From: Octopus vulgaris
Taxonomy: Eukaryota
Assembly: GCA_951406725.2 (NCBI GenBank)
Contig: OX597815.1
Location: 17,856,001-17,920,000 of the forward strand
Reading direction: 5' to 3'
DNA: 64,000 bases
Shown: piece after piece, positions 5,677 through 62,726 of the stretch
Position numbering within the stretch: position 1 is the stretch's first letter
Layout of the letters: every line of letters begins with the position of its first letter
Notes under the pieces: model-generated
What the model saw: the letters and a program-made list of their open reading frames with translations, nothing else
Database searches by the model: none
Told to the model about the DNA's origin: nothing
Program-made: the position numbers and the translations under genes

Positions 5677-6050
5677 TTATTTCTTTGTTGTCCACAAGGG
5701 GCTAAACACAGAGGGGATAAACAAGGACAGACAAAGGGATTAAGTCGATGGCATCGACCCCAGTGCGTAACTGGTACTTAATTTATCAACCCCGAAAGGA
5801 TGAAAGGCAACGTCGACCTCGGCGGAATTTGAACTCGGGGCTAAACATAGAGGGGACAAACAAGGACAGACAAAGGGATCAAGTCGATGGCATCGACCCC
5901 AGTGCATAACTGGTACTTAATTTATCAACCCCGAAAGGATGAAAGGCAAAATCGACCTCGGAGGAATTTGAACTCAGAACATAACAGCAAACAAAATACC
6001 GCCAAGAATTTTTCCCGGCGTGCTAACATTTCTGCCAACTCCCTGCTTTC
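5677..6050 (-). mobile_element. Family-B SINE, partially duplicated
   Basis: Reverse complement of the GGCAGAA..TTAGCACGCCGGG..GAGTTCAAATTCC..CTTTCATCCTTTCGGGG family; flanked by a CACTTAATCCATCT direct repeat. Confidence 0.85.
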
Positions 6051-6758: not shown

Positions 6759-7665
6759 TTTAACCCTTTCGCATTCAGATTACTCTTTTACTCTTTTACT
6801 TGTTTCAGTCATTTGACTGCGGCCCTGCTGGAGCACCGCCTTTAGTCGAGCAAATTGACCCCAGGACTTATTCTTTGTAAGCCTACTACTTATTCTATCG
6901 GTCTCTTTTGCCAAACCGCTAATGATACGGGGACGTAAACACACCAGCATCAGTTGCCAAGCGATGTTGGAGGTACAAACACAGACACACAAACATATAA
7001 ACACACACACGCATAAATATATATATATACATATACGACGGGCTTCTTTCAGTTTCCGTCTACCAAATCCACTCACAAGGCTTTGGTCAGCCTGAGGTTA
7101 TAGTAGAAGACACTTGCCCAAGGTGCCATGCAGTGGGACTGAAAATCGACCCCAGAACTTATTCTTTGTAAGCCCAGTACTTATTCTATTGGTCTCATTT
7201 GCCAAATTGCTAAGTTACAGGGACGTAAACACACCAGCATCAGTTGTCAAGCGATGTTGGGGGTACAAACGCAGACACACAAACATATACACACACATAC
7301 ATATATATACATACATATACAACGGGCTTCTTTCAGTTTCTGTCTACCAAATCCACTCACAAGGCTTTGGTTGGCCCAAGGCTATAGTAGAAGACACTTG
7401 CCCAAGGTGCCACGCAGTGGGACTGAACACGGGAACCATGTGGTTGGTAAGCAAGCTACTTACCACACAGCCACACCTGTAATACTTATTCACATAGTTT
7501 TGAATTAATCGTGCATTACCTCATAGCTTCATGATTCTAATGTGATTATATATTTTTAGAATGACATTATAAGGTAGGTGTGACAGGCCTGATCTAGCTG
7601 GTTTGAACATTACACAGGTAGAATATTTTGGCCGGATATGGTCAGTTTAAATGCTAAAGGGTTAA
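6759..7665. mobile_element. piggyBac-type MITE interrupted by two tandem family-A SINEs (6781-7480, minus)
   Basis: TTAACCCTTT at the left end; the MITE body resumes at ~7480 and ends AAAGGGTTAA. Confidence 0.75.
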
Positions 7666-24032: not shown

Positions 24033-24435
24033 GGATCTTTTCGGTTTGAACGGCAGTTTTTTAACATAATTTCAAGGTAACGAAAAAATTTTAAACTTCG
24101 TATACTGGTAGAATGTGTTTATAAAACATCTTTTTCTCTTGGCTTTATTGAGAAAATTCTATGGTTTGTAAGATATTTGTTGTTTTTTTCTTCAATTTCA
24201 ACCAATCAATGACCGTCTATTGAGGTGAAAACATTCTGTGCTGTATGAATATGTCCCTCGTTTAAGAAACAGATTGGGTTTATTTACATTTGTGAAGGAA
24301 AAAAATATACCCTTCCCCCACTCCTAACCCTAAATTAGATTGAAATGCAATAGATCGATACTAGGGTCATAATTATGGGTGACAATTTCATATGACACCG
24401 CTAGAAAAAAACTGCCGTTCAAACCGAAAAGATAC
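24033..24435. mobile_element. GGATC-terminal MITE (opposite orientation to 17117)
   Basis: TIRs as above; 8-bp TSD TCCCTGTC / TTCCTGTC. Confidence 0.85.
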
Positions 24436-25180
24436 TTCCTGTCTAACCAAAAGCAGCCACTTAGACGTTTCACTTGAGATTACAATTGATATCCTGCAAG
24501 TGCAAACCAACTACGAACAAGCAAACAGACAAACAAAAAAATTAGATTGAAATGCAATAGATCGATACTTGGGTCATAATTATGGGTGACAATTTCATAC
24601 GACACCGCTAGAAAAAACTGCCGTTCAAAACGAAAAGATTCTCCCTGTCTAACCAAAAGCAGCCACTTAGACGTTTCACTTGAGATTACAATTGATATCC
24701 TGCAAGTGCAAACCAACTACGGACAAGCAAACAGACAAACAAAAAAATTAGATTGAAATGCAATAGATCGATACTTGGGTCATAATTATGGGTGACAATT
24801 TCATACGACACCGCTAGAAAAAACTGCCGTTCAAACCGAAAAGATACTCCCTGTCTAACCAAAAGCAGCCACTTAGACGTTTCACTTGAGATTACAATTG
24901 ATATCCTGCAAGTGCAAACCAACTACGGACAAGCAAACAGACAAACAAAAAATTAATATTCTTGCTAATGCAATAGATCGATACTTGGGTCATAATTATG
25001 GGTGACAATTTCATACGACACCGCTAGAAAAAACTGCCGTTCAAACCGAAAAGATACTCCCTGTCTAACCAAAAGCAGCCACTTAGACGTTTCACTTGAG
25101 ATTACAATTGATATCCTGCAAGTGCAAACCAACTACGGACAAGCAAACAGACAAACAAAAAATTAATATTCTTGCTAATT
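24335..25180. repeat. Tandem repeat, ~206-bp unit x ~4, spanning a MITE end plus flank
   Basis: ATTAGATTGAAATGCAATAGATCG recurs at 24335, 24541 and 24747, with a shifted junction at ~24969. Confidence 0.9.
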
Positions 25181-30694: not shown

Positions 30695-31488
30695 CTTATT
30701 TCTTTACAACCCACAAGGGGCTAAACACAAAGAGGACAAACAAGGACAGACAAACGGATTAAGTCGATTACATCGACCCCGAAAGGATGAAAGGCAAAGT
30801 CGACCTCGGCGGAATTTGAACTCGGAACGTAAAACACAGACGAAATACCTATTTCTTTACTACCCACAAGGGGCTAAACACAGAGAGGACAAACAAGGAC
30901 AGACAAACGGATTAAGTCGATTATATCGACCCCAGTGCGTAACTGGTACTTTATTTAATCGACCCCAAAAGGATGAAAGGCAAAGTCGACCTCGGCGGAA
31001 TTTGAACTCAGAACGTAAAGACAGACGAAATACCTATTTCTTTACTACCCACAAGGGGTTAAACACAGAGGGGCAAACAAGGACAGAAAAACAGATTAAG
31101 ACGATTACATCGACCCCAGTGCGTAACTGGTACTTACTTTATCAACCCCGAAAGGATGAAAGGCAACGTCGACCTTGGCGGAATTTGAACTCGGAACGTA
31201 AAACACAGACGAAATACCTATTTCTTTACTACCCACAAGGGGCTAAACACAGAGAGGACAAACAAGGACAGACAAACGGATTAAGTCGATTATATCGACC
31301 CCAGTGCGTAACTGGTACTTATTTAATCGACTTATTTAATCGACGTAACTGGTACTTAATTTATTGACCCCGAAAGAATGAAATGCAAAGTCGACCTCGG
31401 CGGAATTTGAACTCAGAACGTAACGGCAGACGAAATACCGCTACGCATTTCGCCCGGCGTGCTAACCATTCTGCCAGCTCGCCGCCTT
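30695..31488 (-). mobile_element. Family-B SINE multimer (~4 units of ~185 bp, one head)
   Basis: Junction GAAATACC|TATTTCTTTAC repeated three times; single head at ~31488; TTTTAT.AATATATC flanks. Confidence 0.9.
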
Positions 31489-45747: not shown

Positions 45748-46040
45748 ACTGTTGTATTTGGGGATGGTCATGTTGTCAGTTTAGCAAATAAAACACACAC
45801 ACACACTATATACATTTGGTGTTAATTTGCTTCAGCTTTATTTTATTTTTTTACATTAATCTTAATCTTATTTCGGCCAGAGTTCTTTCGTCACACTTCT
45901 GTGACCTCATCAGTGGTTCTTTGCTTTCTCCTTTCTTATTTGTGTGTCTTTTCTTACTACCAATCAGCCATTTTGTATTTTGTATTCCTATTGTATGTAT
46001 CTTTATTTGCGCATGCATATACCCCTATGTGTGTCTATTT
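45748..46040 (-). mobile_element. PLE-type terminal repeat (family of 3654-4168)
   Basis: Reverse complement aligns with ~3880-4168. Confidence 0.75.
45877..45916 (-). ncRNA. Minimal type-I hammerhead ribozyme, canonical core
   Basis: CCA-CTGATGA-G-GTCACA-GAAG-TGTGAC-GAAA-GAAC-TC^-TGG. Confidence 0.75.
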
Positions 46041-49064: not shown

Positions 49065-49668
49065 AGCAAGAACTGGCAGAAACATTAGCACGCCAGGCAA
49101 AATACTTCGCAGTATTTCGTCTGCTGTTATGTTCTGAGTTCAAATTCCGCCAAGGTCGACTTTGCCTTTCCTCCTTTTGGGGTCGATAAAATTAAGTACT
49201 AGTTACGCACTGGGGTCGATGTAATCGACTTAATCCCTTTGTCTGTCTTTGTTTGACCCCTCTATGTTTAGCCACTTGTGGGTAATAAAGAAATAGGTAT
49301 TTTGTCTGCCGCTATGTTCTGAGTTCAAATTCCGCCGAGGTCGACTTTGCCTTTCATCCTTTTGGGGTCGATAAAATTAAGTACTAGTTACGCACTGGGG
49401 TCGATGTAATCGACTTAATCCCTTTGTCTGTCTTTGTTTGACCCCTCTATGTTTAGCCACTTGTGGGTAATAAAGAAATAGGTATTTCGACTGCTGTTAT
49501 GTTCTGAGTTCAAATTCCACCAAGGTTGACTTTGCCTTTCATCCTTTCGGGGTCGATAAATTAAGTACCAGTAACGTACTAGAGTCGATGTAATCGACTT
49601 AATCCCTTTGTCTGTCCTTGCTTGTCCCCCTCTATGTTTAGCCCCCTTGTGGGCAATAAAGAAATAAG
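49065..49668 (+). mobile_element. Family-B SINE trimer
   Basis: One head and three ~184-bp units joined at AAGAAATAG|GTATTT. Confidence 0.9.
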
Positions 49669-50623: not shown

Positions 50624-51211
50624 CTTATTTCTTTACTGCCCACAAGGGGTTAAACACAGATGGGACAAACAAGGACAGACAAACGGATTAAGTCGATTAT
50701 ATCGAACCCAGTGCGTAACTGGTACTTATTCAATCAACCCCGAAAGGATGAAAGGCAAAGTCAACCTCGGCGGAATTTGAACTCAGAAAGTAGCGGCAGA
50801 TGAAATACCTATTTCTTTACTACCCACAAGGAGCCAAACACAGAGAGGACAAATGGATTAAGTCGATTATATCGACCCCAGTGCGTAACTGGTACTTATT
50901 TAATCCACCCCGAAAGGATGAAAGGCAAAGTCGACTTCGGCGGAATTTGAACTCAGAACGTAGCGGCAGACGAAATACCTATTTCTTTACGACCCACAAG
51001 GGGCTAAACACAGAGAGGACAAACAAGGACAGACAAATGGATTAAGTCGATTATATCGACCCCAGTGCGTAACTGGTACTTATTTAATCAACCCCGAAAG
51101 GATGAAAGGCAAAGTCGACCTCGGCAGAATTTGAACTCAGAACATAATGGCAGGCAAGATACCACTAAGCATTTCGCCCGGCGTGCTAACGTTTCTGCCA
51201 GCTCACCGCCT
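50624..51211 (-). mobile_element. Family-B SINE trimer
   Basis: Same junction twice. Confidence 0.9.
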
Positions 51212-52092
51212 ATGCTACTATTTCTAGCAGATCTTTTGACTACGTAAAGGTAATCTTGTTAACTTGTGAAGACATGAGTAAATTTATTAAGATAAAAAAA
51301 GAAGCAAGGCTAACTGAGGAAAGATGATATTGTGAGGGTTAATGATAGCTATCAGAGTTAACGGAGGATATTACCAAAGTTAGGTATCATTGAAAGGCCA
51401 TTTTGTAGGCTTATTATGCAAGTAAGAAAAAAAAAATTGGTAGATATTTTTCTTATTTTGGCACAAAACCAGAAATTTAGAGTAGAAAGGAGGAGTATAA
51501 GCATTTAAATCAACTCCGTTACTTGACTGGGGTTTTATTGATTTAAACCCAGAACATAGAGATGGAACTAAATATCAAAAAGCATTTAGTTCATTGCTTT
51601 TCTGATTCTGCTATCTACCCACCCACCCTAAAAATATTGATAAGTTATAAATAATAAAGATAATTTATTGCATATTTTAATTAAAATCTCATTTATTTCA
51701 GCAAATATAGGTGTGAGGATTTATTTCACTTTCATAACAACTTTGGCCTAAAGATTAAAGATTAAAGAAATAAGTCTATAAAATGATTTTTACACAATTT
51801 TCAAATCAACATCACTGACGTATGTTCACAAGAGAAGCAGAAAACATTGAGCAAATACAATTTCTTTCATGAAGCCAAACTTTTCAATTAGAATTTAAAG
51901 TTTTTGTTTGAGAGAAAACTAAGTTGAAATCGAAGCAGTAGGTTCCAGAATAATGTCAGTCATAGATTTAACATTTAAGTATTATCTTTTTATCTTTTTA
52001 CGGAGATGTACTTGCATAGCAAGTGATTTGATCTAAGATCGTGTGCTGAAACAGAAACAATTGCAGCACAGGTGGAAGGTGTTTGTAAGCCC

Positions 52093-55000
52093 GGATTTTT
52101 GTCAGTGAACAGGTCGCGGTCGTAAAGCGACGAAAATATTTTGACAAATTAAACTTAAATGTTGAAGTGAATCGAACGGCTTTTGTGTGTTTCCTAAATG
52201 GCTTACAAACACCTTCTACGCTGCAATTGTCTATATATATATAAACCTTATTCAGCATGGATTTTTGTCAGTGAACAGGTCGCGGTCTTAAAGCGACGAA
52301 AATATTTTGACAAATTAAACTTAAATGTTGAAGTGAATCTAACGGCTTTTGTGTGTTTCCTAAATGGCTTACAAACACCTTCTACGCTGCAATTGTCTAT
52401 ATATATATAAACCTTATTCAGCATGGATTTTTGTCAGTGAACAGGTCGCGGTCGTAAAGCGACGAAAATATTTTGACAAATTAAACTTAAATGTTGAAGA
52501 GAATCTAACGGCTTTTGTGTGTTTCCTAAATGGCTTACAAACACCTTCTACGCTGCAATTGTCTATATATATATAAACCTTATTCAGCATGGATTTTTGT
52601 CAGTGAACAGGTCGCGGTCGTAAAGCGACGAAAATATTTTGACAAAGTAAACTTAAATGTTGAAGTGAATCTAACGGCTTTTGTGTGTTTCTTAAATGGC
52701 TTACAAACACCTTCTACGCTGCAATTGTCTATATATATAAACCTTATTCAGCATGGATTTTTGTCAGTGAACAGGTCGCGGTCGTAAAGCGACGAAAATA
52801 TTTTGACAAATTAAACTTAAATGTTGAAGTGAATCGAACGGCTTTTGTGTGTTTCCTAAATGGTTTACAAACACCTTCTACGCTGCAATTGTCTATATAT
52901 ATATAAACCTTATTCAGCATGGATTTTTGTCAGTGAACAGGTCGCGGTCTTAAAGCGACGAAAATATTTTGACAAATTAAACTTAAATGTTGAAGTGAAT
53001 CTAACGGCTTTTGTGTGTTTCTTAAATGGCTTACAAACACCTTCTACGCTGCAATTGTCTATATATATATAAACCTTATTCAGCATGGATTTTTGTCAGT
53101 GAACAGGTCGCGGTCGTAAAGCGACGAAAATATTTTGACAAATTAAACTTAAATGTTGAAGTGAATCTAACGGCTTTTGTGTGTTTCCTAAATGGCTTAC
53201 AAACACCTTCTACGCTGCAATTGTCTATATATATATAAACCTTATTCAGCATGGATTTTTTGTCAGTGAACAGGTCGCGGTCGTAAAGCGACGAAAATAT
53301 TTTGACAAAGTAAACTTAAATGTTGAAGTGAATCTAACGGCTTTTGTGTGTTTCTTAAATGGCTTACAAACACCTTCTACGCTGCAATTGTCTATATATA
53401 TATAAACCTTATTCAGCATGGATTTTTGTCAGTGAACAGGTCGCGGTCGTAAAGCGACGAAAATATTTTGACAAATTAAACTTAAATGTTGAAGTGAATC
53501 GAACGGCTTTTGTGTGTTTCCTAAATGGCTTACAAACACCTTCTACGCTGCAATTGTCTATATATATATAAACCTTATTCAGCATGGATTTTTGTCAGTG
53601 AACAGGTCGCGGTCGTAAAGCGACGAAAATATTTTGACAAATTAAACTTAAATGTTGAAGTGAATCGAACGGCTTTTGTGTGTTTCCTAAATGGCTTACA
53701 AACACCTTCTACGCTGCAATTGTCTATATATATATAAACCTTATTCAGCATGGATTTTTGTCAGTGAACAGGTCGCGGGCTTAAAGCGACGAAAATTATT
53801 TTGACAAATTAAACTTAAATGTTGAAGTGAATCTAACGGCTTTTGTGTGTTTCCTAAATGGCTTACAAACACCTTCCATGCTGCAATTGTCTATATATAT
53901 ATATAAACCTTATTCAGCATGGATTTTTGTCAGTGAACAGGTCGCGGTCTTAAAGCGACGAAAATATTTTGACAAATTAAACTTAAATGTTCAAGTGAAT
54001 CTAACGGCTTTTGTGTGTTTCCTAAATGGCTTACAAACACCTTCCATGCTGCAATTGTCTATATATATATAAACCTTATTCAGCATGGATTTTTGTCAGT
54101 GAACAGGTCGCGGCCTTAAAGCGACGAAAATATTTTGACAAATTAACCTTAAATGTTGAAGTGAATCGAACGGCTTTTGTGTGTTTCCTAAATGGCTTAC
54201 AAACACCTTCTACGCTGCAATTGTCTATATATATATAAACCTTATTCAGCATGGATTTTTGTCAGTGAACAGGTCGCGGTCTTAAAGCGACGAAAATATT
54301 TTGACAAATTAAACTTAAATGTTCAAGTGAATCTAACGGCTTTTGTGTGTTTCTTAAATGGCTTACAAACACCTTCTACGCTGCAATTGTCTATATATAT
54401 ATAAACCTTATTCAGCATGGATTTTTGTCAGTGAACAGGTCGCGGTCGTAAAGCGACGAAAATATTTTGACAAATTAAACTTAAATGTTGAAGAGAATCT
54501 AACGGCTTTTGTGTGTTTCCTAAATGGCTTACAAACACCTTCTACGCTGCAATTGTCTATATATATATAAACCTTATTCAGCATGGATTTTTGTCAGTGA
54601 ACAGGTCGCGGTCGTAAAGCGACGAAAATATTTTGACAAAGTAAACTTAAATGTTGAAGTGAATCTAACGGCTTTTGTGTGTTTCTTAAATGGCTTACAA
54701 ACACCTTCTACGCTGCAATTGTCTATATATATATAAACCTTATTCAGCATGGATTTTTGTCAGTGAACAGGTCGCGGTCGTAAAGCGACGAAAATATTTT
54801 GACAAATTAAACTTAAATGTTGAAGTGAATCGAACGGCTTTTGTGTGTTTCTTAAATGGCTTACAAACACCTTCCACGCTGCAATTGTCTATATATATAT
54901 AAACCTTATTCAGCACGGATTTTTGTCAGTGAACAGGTCGCGGTCTTAAAGCGACGAAAATATTTTGACAAATTAAACTTAAATGTTGAAGTGAATCGAA

Positions 55001-57085
55001 CGGCTTTTGTGTGTTTCTTAAATGGCTTACAAACACCTTCTACGCTGCAATTGTCTATATATATATAAACCTTATTCAGCATGGATTTTTGTCAGTGAAC
55101 AGGTCGCGGTCGTAAAGCGACGAAAATATTTTGACAAATTAAACTTAAATGTTGAAGTGAATCTAACGGCTTTTGTGTGTTTCCTAAATGGCTTACAAAC
55201 ACCTTCTACGCTGCAATTGTCTATATATATATAAACCTTATTCAGCATGGATTTTTGTCAGTGAACAGGTCGCGGTCGTAAAGCGACGAAAATATTTTGA
55301 CAAAGTAAACTTAAATGTTGAAGTGAATCTAACGGCTTTTGTGTGTTTCTTAAATGGCTTACAAACACCTTCTACGCTGCAATTGTCTATATATATATAA
55401 ACCTTATTCAGCATGGATTTTTGTCAGTGAACAGGTCGCGGTCGTAAAGCGACGAAAATATTTTGACAAATTAAACTTAAATGTTGAAGTGAATCGAACG
55501 GCTTTTGTGTGTTTCCTAAATGGCTTACAAACACCTTCTACGCTGCAATTGTCTATATATATATAAACCTTATTCAGCATGGATTTTTGTCAGTGAACAG
55601 GTCGCGGTCGTAAAGCGACGAAAATATTTTGACAAATTAAACTTAAATGTTGAAGTGAATCGAACGGCTTTTGTGTGTTTCCTAAATGGCTTACAAACAC
55701 CTTCTACGCTGCAATTGTCTATATATATATAAACCTTATTCAGCATGGATTTTTGTCAGTGAACAGGTCGCGGGCTTAAAGCGACGAAAATTATTTTGAC
55801 AAATTAAACTTAAATGTTGAAGTGAATCTAACGGCTTTTGTGTGTTTCCTAAATGGCTTACAAACACCTTCCATGCTGCAATTGTCTATATATATATAAA
55901 CCTTATTCAGCATGGATTTTTGTCAGTGAACAGGTCGCGGCCTTAAAGCGACGAAAATATTTTGACAAATTAACCTTAAATGTTGAAGTGAATCGAACGG
56001 CTTTTGTGTGTTTCCTAAATGGCTTACAAACACCTTCTACGCTGCAATTGTCTATATATATATAAACCTTATTCAGCATGGATTTTTGTCAGTGAACAGG
56101 TCGCGGTCTTAAAGCAACGAAAATATTTTGACAAAGTAAACTTAAATGTTGAAGTGAATCTAACGGCTTTTGTGTGTTTCCTAAATGGCTTACAAACACC
56201 TTCCATGCTGCAATTGTCTATATATATATAAACCTTATTCAGCATGGATTTTTGTCAGTGAACAGGTCGCGGTCTTAAAGCGACGAAAATATTTTGACAA
56301 ATTAAACTTAAATGTTGAAGTGAATCTAACGGCTTTTGTGTGTTTCCTAAATGGCTACTAACACCTTCCACGCTGCAATTGTCTATATATATATATAAAC
56401 CTTATTCAGCATGGATTTTTGTCAGTGAACAGGTCGCGGCCTTAAAGCGACGAAAATATTTTGACAAATTAAACTTAAATGTTCAAGTGAATCTAACGGC
56501 TTTTGTGTGTTTCCTAAATGGCTTACAAACACCTTCTACGCTGCAATTGTCTATATATATATAAACCTTATTCAGCATGGATTTTTGTCAGTGAACAGGT
56601 CGCGGCCTTAAAGCGACGAAAATATTTTGACAAATTAAACTTAAATGTTCAAGTGAATCTAACGGCTTTTGTGTGTTTCCTAAATGGCTTACAAACACCT
56701 TCTACGCTGCAATTGTCTATATATATATAAACCTTATTCAGCATGGATTTTTGTCAGTGAACAGGTCGCGGTCTTAAAGCGACGAAAATATTTTGACAAA
56801 TTAAACTTAAATGTTGAAGTGAATCGAACGGCTTTTGTGTGTTTCCTAAATGGCTTACAAACACCTTCTACGCTGCAATTGTCTATATATATATAAACCT
56901 TATTCAGCATGGATTTTTGTCAGTGAACAGGTCGCGGTCTTAAAGCGACGAAAATATTTTGACAAATTAAACTTAAATGTTGAAGTGAATCGAACGGCTT
57001 TTGTGTGTTTCTTAAATGGCTTATAAACTAAAGGTAGATGTATTTTAAATTCCACAAACACCTTCCACGCTGCAATTGCTTTTAT
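52093..57085 (+). repeat. 166-bp satellite, 30 units, hammerhead-bearing (retrozyme-like); inverted partial unit at 52057-52090
   Basis: Period 166 from recurring motifs (ORF starts 52198, 52364, 52530...); left flank ACAATTGCAGC..GTGGAAGGTGTTTGTAAGCC is the reverse complement of part of the unit. Confidence 0.95.
52098..52148 (+). ncRNA. Minimal type-I hammerhead-like ribozyme with G3-C8 core swap (first of 30 copies)
   Basis: TTTGTCA-GTGAACA-G-GTCGC-GGTCGTAAA-GCGAC-GAAA-ATAT-TT^-TGACAAA; 7-bp stem I, 5-bp stem II, palindromic stem III. Confidence 0.65.
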
Positions 57086-57099
57086 CTTTTGTTTTTTAT

Positions 57100-62130: not shown

Positions 62131-62726
62131 TCTTATTTCTTTATTGCCCACAAGGGGCTAAACATAAAGGGGACAAACAAGGACATTAAGTCGAATACAT
62201 CAACTCCAGTGCATAACTGGTACTTAATTTATTGACCCCAAAAGGATGAAAGTCAAAGTCGACCTCTGGCGGAATTTGAACTCAGAACATAATGGCAGAC
62301 GAAATGCCTATTTCTTTACTACCCACAAGGGGCTAAACACAGAGAGGACAAACAAGGACAGACAAACGGATTAAGTCGATTACGTCGACCCCAGTACGTA
62401 ACTGGTACTTATTTAATCAACCCCAAAAGGATGAAAGGCAAAGTCGACCTCGGCAAAAATTGAACTCAGAACGTAATGGCAGATGAAATACCTATTTCTT
62501 TACTACCCACAAGGGGCTAAACATAGAGGGGACAAACAAGGAGAGACAAACGAATTAAGTCGATTACATCGACCCCAGTGCGTAACTGGTACTTATTTAA
62601 TCAACCCCGAAAGGATGAAAGGCAAAGTCAACCTCGGCGGAATTTTAACTCAGAACATAACAGCTGACGAAATACCACTATGCATTTCGCCTGGCGTGCT
62701 AACGTTTCTGCCAGCTTGCCGCCTTG
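62131..62726 (-). mobile_element. Family-B SINE trimer
   Basis: Same junction twice; long direct repeat TTTCACCGATACTGAATTGTTTCT on both sides. Confidence 0.9.

What the first reader, a model, noticed from the sequence alone, without database searches (positions are those of the whole stretch)
52093..57025. 30-copy 166-bp satellite encoding a hammerhead ribozyme with a swapped G3-C8 core (retrozyme-like array)
Seen: the units read TTTGTCA GTGAACA G GTCGC (9-nt loop) GCGAC GAAA ATAT T T TGACAAA. That is stem I (7 bp), a 7-nt core, stem II, GAAA, a tiny stem III, UH and stem I' in type-I order and spacing. The core differs from CUGANGA only at positions 3 and 8, and both change together (C3G, G8C). 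Established: positions 3 and 8 form a Watson-Crick pair in the active hammerhead, and compensatory swaps can restore cleavage; minimal type-I hammerheads occur in Penelope terminal repeats and in tandem non-LTR retrozymes (newt satellite 2, schistosome Sm-alpha), and related retrozymes yield monomeric and circular RNAs. Inference: transcripts of this array would self-process into 166-nt monomers or circles (first predicted cut between 52141 and 52142). Standard CUGANGA motif searches would miss this family. Caveats: the triplet is UUU (weak) and one extra G precedes stem II.
Basis: partly seen in the sequence, partly recalled or inferred. Interest (0 to 1): 0.92.

Follow-up and report, generated by a model that had tools for sequence, protein, structure and literature searches.

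The report
Swapped-core hammerhead in Penelope satellite
This 30-copy repeat is the multiplied end-piece of a Penelope-type jumping gene that carries a small self-cutting-RNA (hammerhead) motif in which two paired core letters have traded places, a natural variant not found in the papers searched, but cutting and RNA circles are unproven.

Summary
The array is real: 30 units of 166 bp, each with a type-I hammerhead layout whose core reads G3…C8 instead of C3…G8. It is not a stand-alone retrozyme. The unit is the pseudo-LTR of an autonomous Penelope-like element (RT + GIY-YIG), including that element's start codon; the left flank is the inverted PLE 'tail'. The parent carries the same core, as do 6,609 of 7,244 genomic copies. 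A sister PLE (55% aa) keeps the scaffold with C3-G8 and compensatory stem changes; a third PLE has U3-A8. The swap is therefore a true compensatory change. The extra G and U17 are ordinary PLE features (PMC4209133). The monomer/circle model lacks support: copies begin upstream of the ribozyme, not at the cut; some arrays start in the parent's 3' UTR or amplify broken ribozymes. Best reading: a pLTR satellite grown at DNA level, with a slow, probably dimer- and protein-dependent variant hammerhead; cleavage untested. No natural G3-C8 core was found in print (one key paper not held). The scan noted similar swaps in two protist genomes.

The parts
51986..51997 (.). Left copy of a possible target-site duplication (T-rich, low complexity; one T more than the right copy)
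51998..52091 (-). Inverted, 5'-truncated piece of the PLE: unit positions 107-138 plus the ~60-nt 'tail' (first ~30 codons of the parent ORF)
   Evidence: 83 of 94 alignment columns match the parent L248; span
52093..57028 (+). Tandem array of 30 pLTR units, 166 bp (last unit stops at position 118)
   Evidence: unit 1 matches the parent pLTR at 122 of 133 columns
52098..52148 (+). Type-I minimal hammerhead motif of unit 1 (stem I 7 bp, stem II 5 bp, palindromic AATATT stem III); repeated every 166 bp
   Evidence: sequence
52105..52112 (+). Core G3-U4-G5-A6-A7-C8-A9 plus the extra G before stem II
   Evidence: 30 of 30 units; G3+C8 in 6,609 of 7,244 genomic matches
52140..52142 (+). U16.1-U17 and predicted scissile bond 52141/52142 (not shown to be cut)
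   Evidence: hammerhead numbering applied; no excess of copies starting here
52198..52230 (+). Start codon and first 11 codons of the parent PLE polyprotein; position ~138 is the first of two preferred 3' ends
   Evidence: same ATG opens the ORF in L248; 3' ends of 101 copies: 44 at 133-142, 53 at 193-200
52231..52252 (+). (TA)n tract plus a short linker that joins one pLTR to the next; marks a rare tandem subfamily
   Evidence: 81 exact linker matches in the genome: 29 here, 41 on C28, 10 on C22, 1 on C15
52425..55913 (+). Higher-order duplication: units 3-11 recur as units 15-23 (12-unit, ~2-kb period)
   Evidence: mean unit distance 2.74 at lag 12 against 4.02 overall; 4 of those 9 pairs identical
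57029..57078 (+). 25-nt insertion, then unit positions 113-137: 3' end of the insertion at the usual pLTR end
57079..57089 (.). Right copy of the possible target-site duplication
45877..45916 (-). Separate insertion, useful as control: hammerhead of the sister PLE family with canonical CUGAUGA core, extra G, stem II GTCAC/GTGAC, U16.1-C17

Best explanation
The array is a satellite made of the pseudo-LTR of a recently active, endonuclease-bearing Penelope-like element (PLE). Shown by sequence: the unit runs from just upstream of the hammerhead through the 5' UTR to the element's first codons. Inferred: the element's RT-GIY-YIG protein copied an uncut read-through RNA of a head-to-tail pLTR pair, starting internally in the first codons, and inserted it with an inverted 5' piece and tail; unequal exchange or slippage then grew it to 30 units. 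The hammerhead is inherited from the parent. Its 3-8 pair was flipped once, in the ancestor of this family and an older related family, and kept. It most likely remains a slow ribozyme that needs a second copy (palindromic AAUAUU stem III) and probably the element's protein to fold; it is not needed for most insertions. My odds: PLE-pLTR origin 0.97; DNA-level growth of this array 0.8; detectable site-specific cleavage in a dimer or stabilised construct 0.5.
For: Parent: loci with the pLTR's upstream sequence lead into an ORF with YSRYVDD RT, CxxxCxxC linker and GIY-YIG motifs. In 5 of 5 parent loci fetched the G3-C8 motif lies 971-1,019 nt behind the stop codon; L248 is pLTR-ORF-pLTR and its ATG is the unit's position 106. 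21 of 150 scored copies are at least 97% identical without stops. Two older copies (72-74% aa in the query part) also have G3-C8. PLE hallmarks: 11,250 matches of a 3' anchor; two-peaked 3' ends, head-to-head pairs and (TA)n neighbours in 101 sampled copies, as described for PLEs (PMC11167929; PMC8557442). Compensation: sister PLE (54-57% aa) has the same layout with C3-G8, stem II GTCAC/GTGAC and stem I CCA/TGG; C3 in 95 and G8 in 100 of its first 100 listed matches (4,699 in all). Family B (by my reading 23 of 67 rows, positions 3, 7, 8 free): G3-C8 in 16. Within the family loop II varies at 5 of 9 positions while no core position is polymorphic, and the one common stem change (12 of 57) keeps a U.G pair. 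The engineered C3G/G8C double mutant partly restores cleavage in a PLE hammerhead, which cuts only with the PLE protein (PMC11167929). Uncut templates: 48 of 101 5' ends at -16 to -2, 0 at 48-54; at most 56 genomic copies begin at the cut. DNA growth: 12-unit duplication; 5 of 24 linker-bearing loci begin in the parent's 3' UTR and none at the cut; 5 of 6 units of one array share a broken stem II.
Against: No cleavage was tested. Nearest-neighbour folding puts the dimer form 14 kcal/mol above the free minimum and predicts a G3.U17 wobble (probability 0.66) that closes over the cut site; a similar 3-17 pair is a known trap (PMC3884650). No loop I-loop II contact exists in this layout as a monomer. 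Cores that should be damaged were also mobilised: G3.G8 in 12 of 212 copies, one such core in 9 loci, and the young sister subfamily has C at position 9 in 81 of 100 listed matches, so constraint on catalysis may be loose. Only 1 of 9 Xenopus retrozyme dimers cleaved in vitro (bioRxiv 10.64898/2026.07.22.740005). The swap is one evolutionary event, not many. 7 of 101 5' ends fall at 55-59, just behind the cut; AT-rich microhomology can explain this, but trimmed cleavage products cannot be excluded. No wholly intact parent copy was seen among those fetched (L248 has a stop and frameshifts; L246 lacks the first ~70 codons).
Confidence: 0.7

Rival explanations
1. True non-LTR retrozyme: transcripts of the array are cut into 166-nt monomers, ligated into circles and re-inserted as multimers by rolling-circle reverse transcription using the PLE protein.
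For: Unit size and tandem type-I hammerheads fit the class (PMC7229834, passages; bioRxiv 10.64898/2026.07.22.740005). The same junction occurs at about two dozen loci with different flanks. 27 of 30 units keep the full motif and neighbours supply the dimer partner. The junction is also in a contig of a run of another organism label.
Against: No array starts at the cut; 7 of 24 start at -12 to -9 and 5 of 24 inside the parent's 3' UTR, which a 166-nt circle cannot hold. Broken-ribozyme units were amplified (L012 5 of 6; L008 only 1 of 6 intact). A 12-unit duplication explains much of this array. The linker subfamily is 81 junctions against 7,244 motif copies.
Confidence: 0.15
2. The motif is a catalytically dead relic: the fold is kept for another job (protein binding, promoter or splice signal in the pLTR), and G3-C8 was fixed by drift or for structure only.
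For: Hammerhead mutants do not impair PLE insertion in vitro and no cut ends were seen in RNA-seq (PMC11167929). Mismatched cores spread here too. G3.U17 trap and unfavourable active fold. No genomic footprint of cutting.
Against: Two transversions landed exactly on the two partners of a tertiary pair that matters for the active conformation, while U4, G5, A6, A9, G12-A15.1 and U16.1 stayed; the pair is retained in family B, which is only 59-70% alike in the 3' part where it aligns (5 of 10 copies); three PLE families here show three different Watson-Crick 3-8 pairs.
Confidence: 0.35
3. Chance resemblance of an ordinary satellite to a hammerhead.
For: Two of seven core letters differ from the consensus and Rfam gives no hammerhead match.
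Against: 0 of 20,000 shuffles; position in the pLTR of a PLE, where hammerheads are expected (PMC4209133); canonical-core relatives with the same scaffold.
Confidence: 0.02

Closest known systems
Minimal type-I hammerheads in PLE pseudo-LTRs (Cervera and de la Pena 2014, PMC4209133; read: parts 1-2 of 4 and part 2 of 3 of supplement 2)
   Same: Place in the pLTR, extra nucleotide between 9 and 10.1, G10.1-C11.1 pair, palindromic stem III for dimer folding, frequent U17, thousands of dispersed truncated copies, opposite-strand pairs.
   Different: Core G3-C8. The rows I saw show C3-G8, U3-A8 and one U3.G8; consensus CUGANGAH.
Poseidon element of Anolis, PAc (Frangieh et al. 2024, PMC11167929; read: parts 1-2 of 4)
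   Same: Two internal RT start sites in the first codons that give an optional tail; AT-rich targets; uncut RNA as template; engineered C3G/G8C core partly active.
   Different: There G3-C8 is a laboratory mutant; here it is the natural state. The parent here has a Zn-finger-like linker (Neptune/Nematis type), and its ATG lies 56 nt behind the cut rather than in stem II.
Metazoan non-LTR retrozymes (Cervera and de la Pena 2020, PMC7229834, passages; Li et al. 2026, bioRxiv 10.64898/2026.07.22.740005, parts 1 and 3 of 5)
   Same: Tandem units of 150-400 bp, each with a type-I hammerhead; derivation from PLE pLTRs and growth by unequal crossover are proposed by Li et al.
   Different: Monomer and circular RNAs are shown for coral, mussel and axolotl, not here; non-canonical core; genomic ends argue for uncut linear templates.
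Natural U3-A8 hammerheads (Perreault et al. 2011, PMC3088659, passages)
   Same: Natural covariation of the 3-8 pair.
   Different: U3-A8 needs two transitions and keeps pyrimidine-purine order; G3-C8 needs two transversions and reverses it.

Membership tests
Penelope-like element (EN+), pLTR-derived | Sequence lies at both ends of an ORF with RT and C-terminal GIY-YIG endonuclease | tested here: met
   L248 pLTR-ORF-pLTR, 5 of 5 parent loci. Motifs read by eye; Pfam gave no family for the 524-aa piece; homologues include one named GIY-YIG and others named RT domain proteins.
Penelope-like element (EN+), pLTR-derived | 5'-truncated copies, inverted 5' partner, optional tail | tested here: met
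   window left flank
Penelope-like element (EN+), pLTR-derived | Clade: CX2-5CxxC linker of Neptune and Nematis; short linker of Nematis | tested here: inconclusive
   Linker present and short, like the Nematis rows of PMC8557442 supplement (compared by eye); RT motifs differ from those nematode rows; only 26-30% identity patches to the genome's Neptune-like element (via the sister); no tree built.
Type-I hammerhead ribozyme | Stem I - core - stem II - GAAA - stem III - UH - stem I in order | tested here: met
Type-I hammerhead ribozyme | Consensus core CUGANGA | tested here: not met
   GUGAACA in 30 of 30 units; no Rfam match
Type-I hammerhead ribozyme | Watson-Crick pair between positions 3 and 8 | tested here: met
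   G3-C8 in 6,609 of 7,244 matches; C3-G8 in the sister
Type-I hammerhead ribozyme | Compensatory conservation of stems | tested here: met
   One pair in stem II and one in stem I change on both sides between family and sister; few independent events, no formal covariation statistic run
Type-I hammerhead ribozyme | Site-specific self-cleavage | not testable with these tools
   needs in vitro assay
PLE minimal hammerhead | Extra nucleotide between 9 and 10.1; palindromic 15.1-16.1 segment | tested here: met
   extra G and AATATT in 28 of 30 units, AATTATT in 2; features from PMC4209133
Non-LTR retrozyme | Two or more consecutive tandem units each with a type-I hammerhead | tested here: met
   (met only if the variant core is accepted)
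Non-LTR retrozyme | Monomeric linear and circular RNA in vivo | not testable with these tools
   only assembled contigs were on offer; they show no ends or circles
Non-LTR retrozyme | Spread through cut or circular templates (copies in register with the cut; no flanking parent sequence) | tested here: not met

The most novel reading that the evidence does not exclude
A natural, working G3-C8 hammerhead fixed in an active animal retrotransposon family of thousands of copies, made possible by U17 (which avoids the G3-C17 trap), with this array acting as a retrozyme that releases 166-nt circles. One genome would then hold PLE hammerheads with C3-G8, U3-A8 and G3-C8 cores, and CUGANGA-based surveys would be missing a layer of animal ribozymes.
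Probability: 0.15. Interest if true: 0.8.

Novelty: new variant of a known kind. Interest (0 to 1): 0.5.

Why it matters
If it cuts, it is a natural test of a tertiary pair so far flipped to G3-C8 only in the laboratory, and it widens the descriptor used to count hammerheads in genomes: about 6,600 copies here are invisible to CUGANGA searches and to Rfam. Whether or not it cuts, it bears on an open question, what PLE hammerheads are for: one genome offers matched families with C3-G8, U3-A8, G3-C8 and an A9C core, each tied to its own RT. The array is also a clean case of a satellite born from a PLE pseudo-LTR with the parent identified, in an invertebrate. It is not a new kind of element.

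Tried and rejected
Rfam scan: no hammerhead family. Expression: no RNA holder listed; four runs laid were contigs whose RNA status is a guess, so nothing on strand, ends, level or circles follows. First candidate parent, a very active Neptune-like PLE near locus L014 (784-aa frame): rejected, its pLTR has no similarity to the unit and carries a U3-A8 motif. A Neptune-type ORF directly upstream of a family copy (L195): rejected, the family copy is inserted into it at a truncation point. Genome-wide test for copies starting at the cut: 56 matches at position 50 (19 read ACTGAC, the likely inverted-junction microhomology), against 41 at position 47 and 119 at position 53; both controls are inflated (one-base deletion; a stem I subfamily variant), so this only shows that cut-site starts are under 1% of copies. 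One mistyped pattern gave 4 uninformative hits. MAFFT alignment of 14 motifs misplaced the stem II gaps, so no pair-count statistic was run on it. Family C (C3-G8 3, U3.G8 5, C3.A8 5, other 2 of 15 rows) could not be aligned to this family outside the motif (0 of 7) nor tied to an ORF; 5 of 10 family B copies gave no long alignment either. Eight older or diverged ORF loci (L251-L256, L258, L265) had no family motif in the stretch fetched. The 101-copy sample is the first 25 Mb of one contig and includes about six copies of one segmental duplicate, not removed. The 212-copy tally includes loci first picked by motif similarity. The upstream CTAAC...TTTCTCAG resembles a 3' splice site, but no spliced joint appeared in the contigs; a start site at about -10 fits as well. 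Lunse et al. 2017 and Martick and Scott 2006 were not held; the first, supplement file 1 of PMC4209133 and the supplements of the 2026 preprint could hold G3-C8 examples. No earlier notes on this genome or sequence.
Full report
Observation. The array runs from 52093 to 57028: period 166, 29.7 copies, 97% matches, 30 unit starts. Every unit has stem I (7 bp), GTGAACA, an extra G, stem II (5 bp, 9-nt loop), GAAA, a 4-nt loop, UU and stem I'; 27 of 30 are unchanged outside loop II, 2 have a 5-nt loop III and 1 a stem II mismatch. The predicted cut is 52141/52142. A descriptor with a free Watson-Crick 3-8 pair hit 29 of 30 units, 0 of 20,000 shuffled units and nothing else in the window. Rfam lists no hammerhead among 79 weak matches.

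A large dispersed family. The genome (2.8 Gb, 227 contigs; the best named protein relative of the parent is from Octopus vulgaris) has 7,244 exact matches to the motif with positions 3, 7 and 8 left free; 6,609 have G3 and C8; the reversed control pattern has none. A 3' anchor gives 11,250 matches. In 101 copies taken by that anchor, 3' ends fall in two groups, 44 at unit positions 133-142 and 53 at 193-200; many are head-to-head pairs beside (TA)n. These are the tail, inversion and target habits of Penelope-like elements (PMC11167929; PMC8557442 passages). The window insertion has them too: 51998-52091 is an inverted tail piece, the right end is at position 137, and an 11-12-nt near-repeat flanks both sides.

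The parent. 768 copies keep sequence upstream of the motif. Following it leads through about 1 kb of microsatellite-rich UTR into an ORF with a YSRYVDD reverse transcriptase, a CxxxCxxC linker and GIY-YIG motifs (motifs read by eye, Pfam gave no hit on the 524-aa piece). Of 150 scored matches to its RT part, 21 are at least 97% identical without stops. In 5 of 5 such loci fetched the G3-C8 motif lies 971-1,019 nt behind the stop. L248 is pLTR-ORF-pLTR; its ATG is position 106 of the window unit, so each unit ends with the first 11 codons; unit 1 matches at 122 of 133 columns and the inverted flank at 83 of 94. No wholly intact copy was among those fetched. The linker resembles Nematis rows in a published alignment (by eye); the clade is not settled.

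Is the swap compensatory? A sister PLE (1,309 aa, 54-57% identical over RT-EN) has the same layout: 3-bp stem I CCA/TGG, C3...G8, extra G, stem II GTCAC/GTGAC, GAAA, 4-nt loop, UU. One old copy with fully canonical CUGAUGA and UC lies in this window at 45877-45916, minus strand. Of its 4,699 matches the first 100 show C3 in 95 and G8 in 100. Three canonical-core motifs with the identical GTCGC/GCGAC stem exist elsewhere. An older relative, family B, has G3-C8 in 16 of 23 rows (my sorting of the 67 rows; 15 rows are family C, 29 length variants of this family), and two older ORF copies have it too. In 57 dispersed copies with the whole motif, G3 is in 55 and C8 in 53; subfamily-level variation sits in loop II (5 of 9 positions), just upstream of stem I, and at one stem I position where it gives U.G; the non-ribozyme 3' part is about as conserved as the core, so this alone does not prove constraint. 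A third, Neptune-like PLE has U3-A8. Contigs from runs of three organism labels show no other letter at G3 and only rare G at position 8. The swap is real and derived, but it is one event.

The caveats. The extra nucleotide, the palindromic stem III and U17 are standard in PLE hammerheads, which are thought to work as dimers and cut poorly in vitro (PMC4209133). In the Anolis PLE the engineered C3G/G8C core is partly active, cutting needs the PLE protein, and uncut RNA is the template for insertion (PMC11167929). A G3-C8 variant is reported to be less active with C17 than with G17, in line with a 3-17 trap (PMC3884650 passages); U17 would soften that trap (inference), though folding still predicts a G3.U17 wobble at 0.66 and puts the dimer form at -57.4 against -71.7 kcal/mol for the free fold.

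Against monomers and circles. Of 101 5' ends, 48 lie at -16 to -2 (35 at -13 to -7), none at 48-54, and 7 at 55-59. At most 56 genomic copies start at the cut, with 41 and 119 at two imperfect control positions. The tandem linker occurs only 81 times, 29 here and 41 on one contig rich in zinc-finger genes. Among 24 linker-bearing loci 7 begin at -12 to -9, 5 begin in the parent's 3' UTR, none at the cut, and one continues from the second unit into the ORF. One array amplified a broken stem II in 5 of 6 units. In the window, units 3-11 recur as units 15-23. Mismatched cores also spread: G3.G8 in 12 of 212 copies, C at position 9 in 81 of 100 sister matches. Only 1 of 9 Xenopus dimers cleaved in a recent test (bioRxiv 10.64898/2026.07.22.740005). 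These points favour copying of uncut read-through RNA followed by DNA-level growth. They do not exclude occasional cutting.

Mechanism, with status. Shown by sequence: identity of the unit, the parent, the swap, the insertion anatomy and the 2-kb duplication. From established PLE biology: internal priming in the first codons, tail and inversion, dimer folding through the palindrome. Inferred: a founder pLTR pair joined by (TA)n and a linker, uncut templates, slow protein-assisted cleavage. Odds are in Best explanation.

Novelty. Searches for C3G/G8C, G3-C8, G3C8/U3A8 and the literal core words and for octopus PLE hammerheads found only engineered G3-C8; natural covariation in print is U3-A8 (PMC3088659 passages; PMC4209133). 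The library lacks most subscription papers, and Lunse et al. 2017, which by its title surveys many PLE-associated variants, could not be read. Papers seen: PMC4209133 (parts 1-2 of 4, part 2 of 3 of one supplement), PMC11167929 (parts 1-2 of 4), the 2026 preprint (parts 1 and 3 of 5), passages of PMC8557442 and its supplement, PMC3088659, PMC3884650, PMC7229834, PMC6765202 and PMC8495972. Two unchecked notes of this scan describe G3-C8 motifs in protist PLEs, which hints at repeated origins. Hammerhead numbering and the role of A9 are from my own knowledge. Verdict: a new variant of a known kind, interest 0.5; 0.8 if the motif cuts and circles exist.

Noticed in passing
window 45750-46030, minus strand: pLTR of the sister PLE family with a fully canonical hammerhead (CUGAUGA, extra G, UC cut site) and the start codon at 45771.
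   Followed up: yes
L260-L263 (e.g. L261:6383-6437); 4,699 genomic matches: The young, very active sister subfamily (1,309-aa ORF, many near-identical copies) has C instead of A at core position 9 in 81 of the first 100 matches; older copies keep A9. A successful PLE with a damaged-looking core.
   Followed up: partly
L099-L103 (e.g. L100:2423-4774, L102:1204-4832): Highly active Neptune-like PLE with two overlapping frames (446 and 784 codons), a U3-A8 hammerhead with palindromic CCGG loop and UA cut site, preceded by a splice-acceptor-like tract.
   Followed up: partly
L042, L043, L045, L046, L053, L057, L065: An old family with the same stems and a 5-nt loop II whose 3-8 states are C-G (3), U.G (5), C.A (5), other (2) in 15 rows; no ORF found.
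   Followed up: partly
contig C28 loci L002, L005, L006, L007, L010: Half of all tandem-linker junctions lie on one contig, several within a few kb of C2H2 zinc-finger ORFs; three of them are copies of a 5.2-kb duplication (L188, L189).
   Followed up: no
L248:4390-4425 and 768 genomic matches: Branch-point and acceptor-like sequence ends 8 nt before unit position 1; most full 5' ends of short copies map within 5 nt of it, several with a G where the genomic form has C (cap-derived G or exon junction).
   Followed up: partly
window 5698-5975, 6852-7427, 30772-31331, 49112-49666, 50677-51143, 62185-62676: Short tandem runs (2-3 copies, 139-284 bp) of abundant SINE-like repeats.
   Followed up: no
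window 24332-25162: Four-copy 206-bp tandem repeat, 97% matches.
   Followed up: no
L040:2263-2810: Intronless 182-codon frame resembling dCMP deaminase next to a family copy (identified by eye; label recalled).
   Followed up: no
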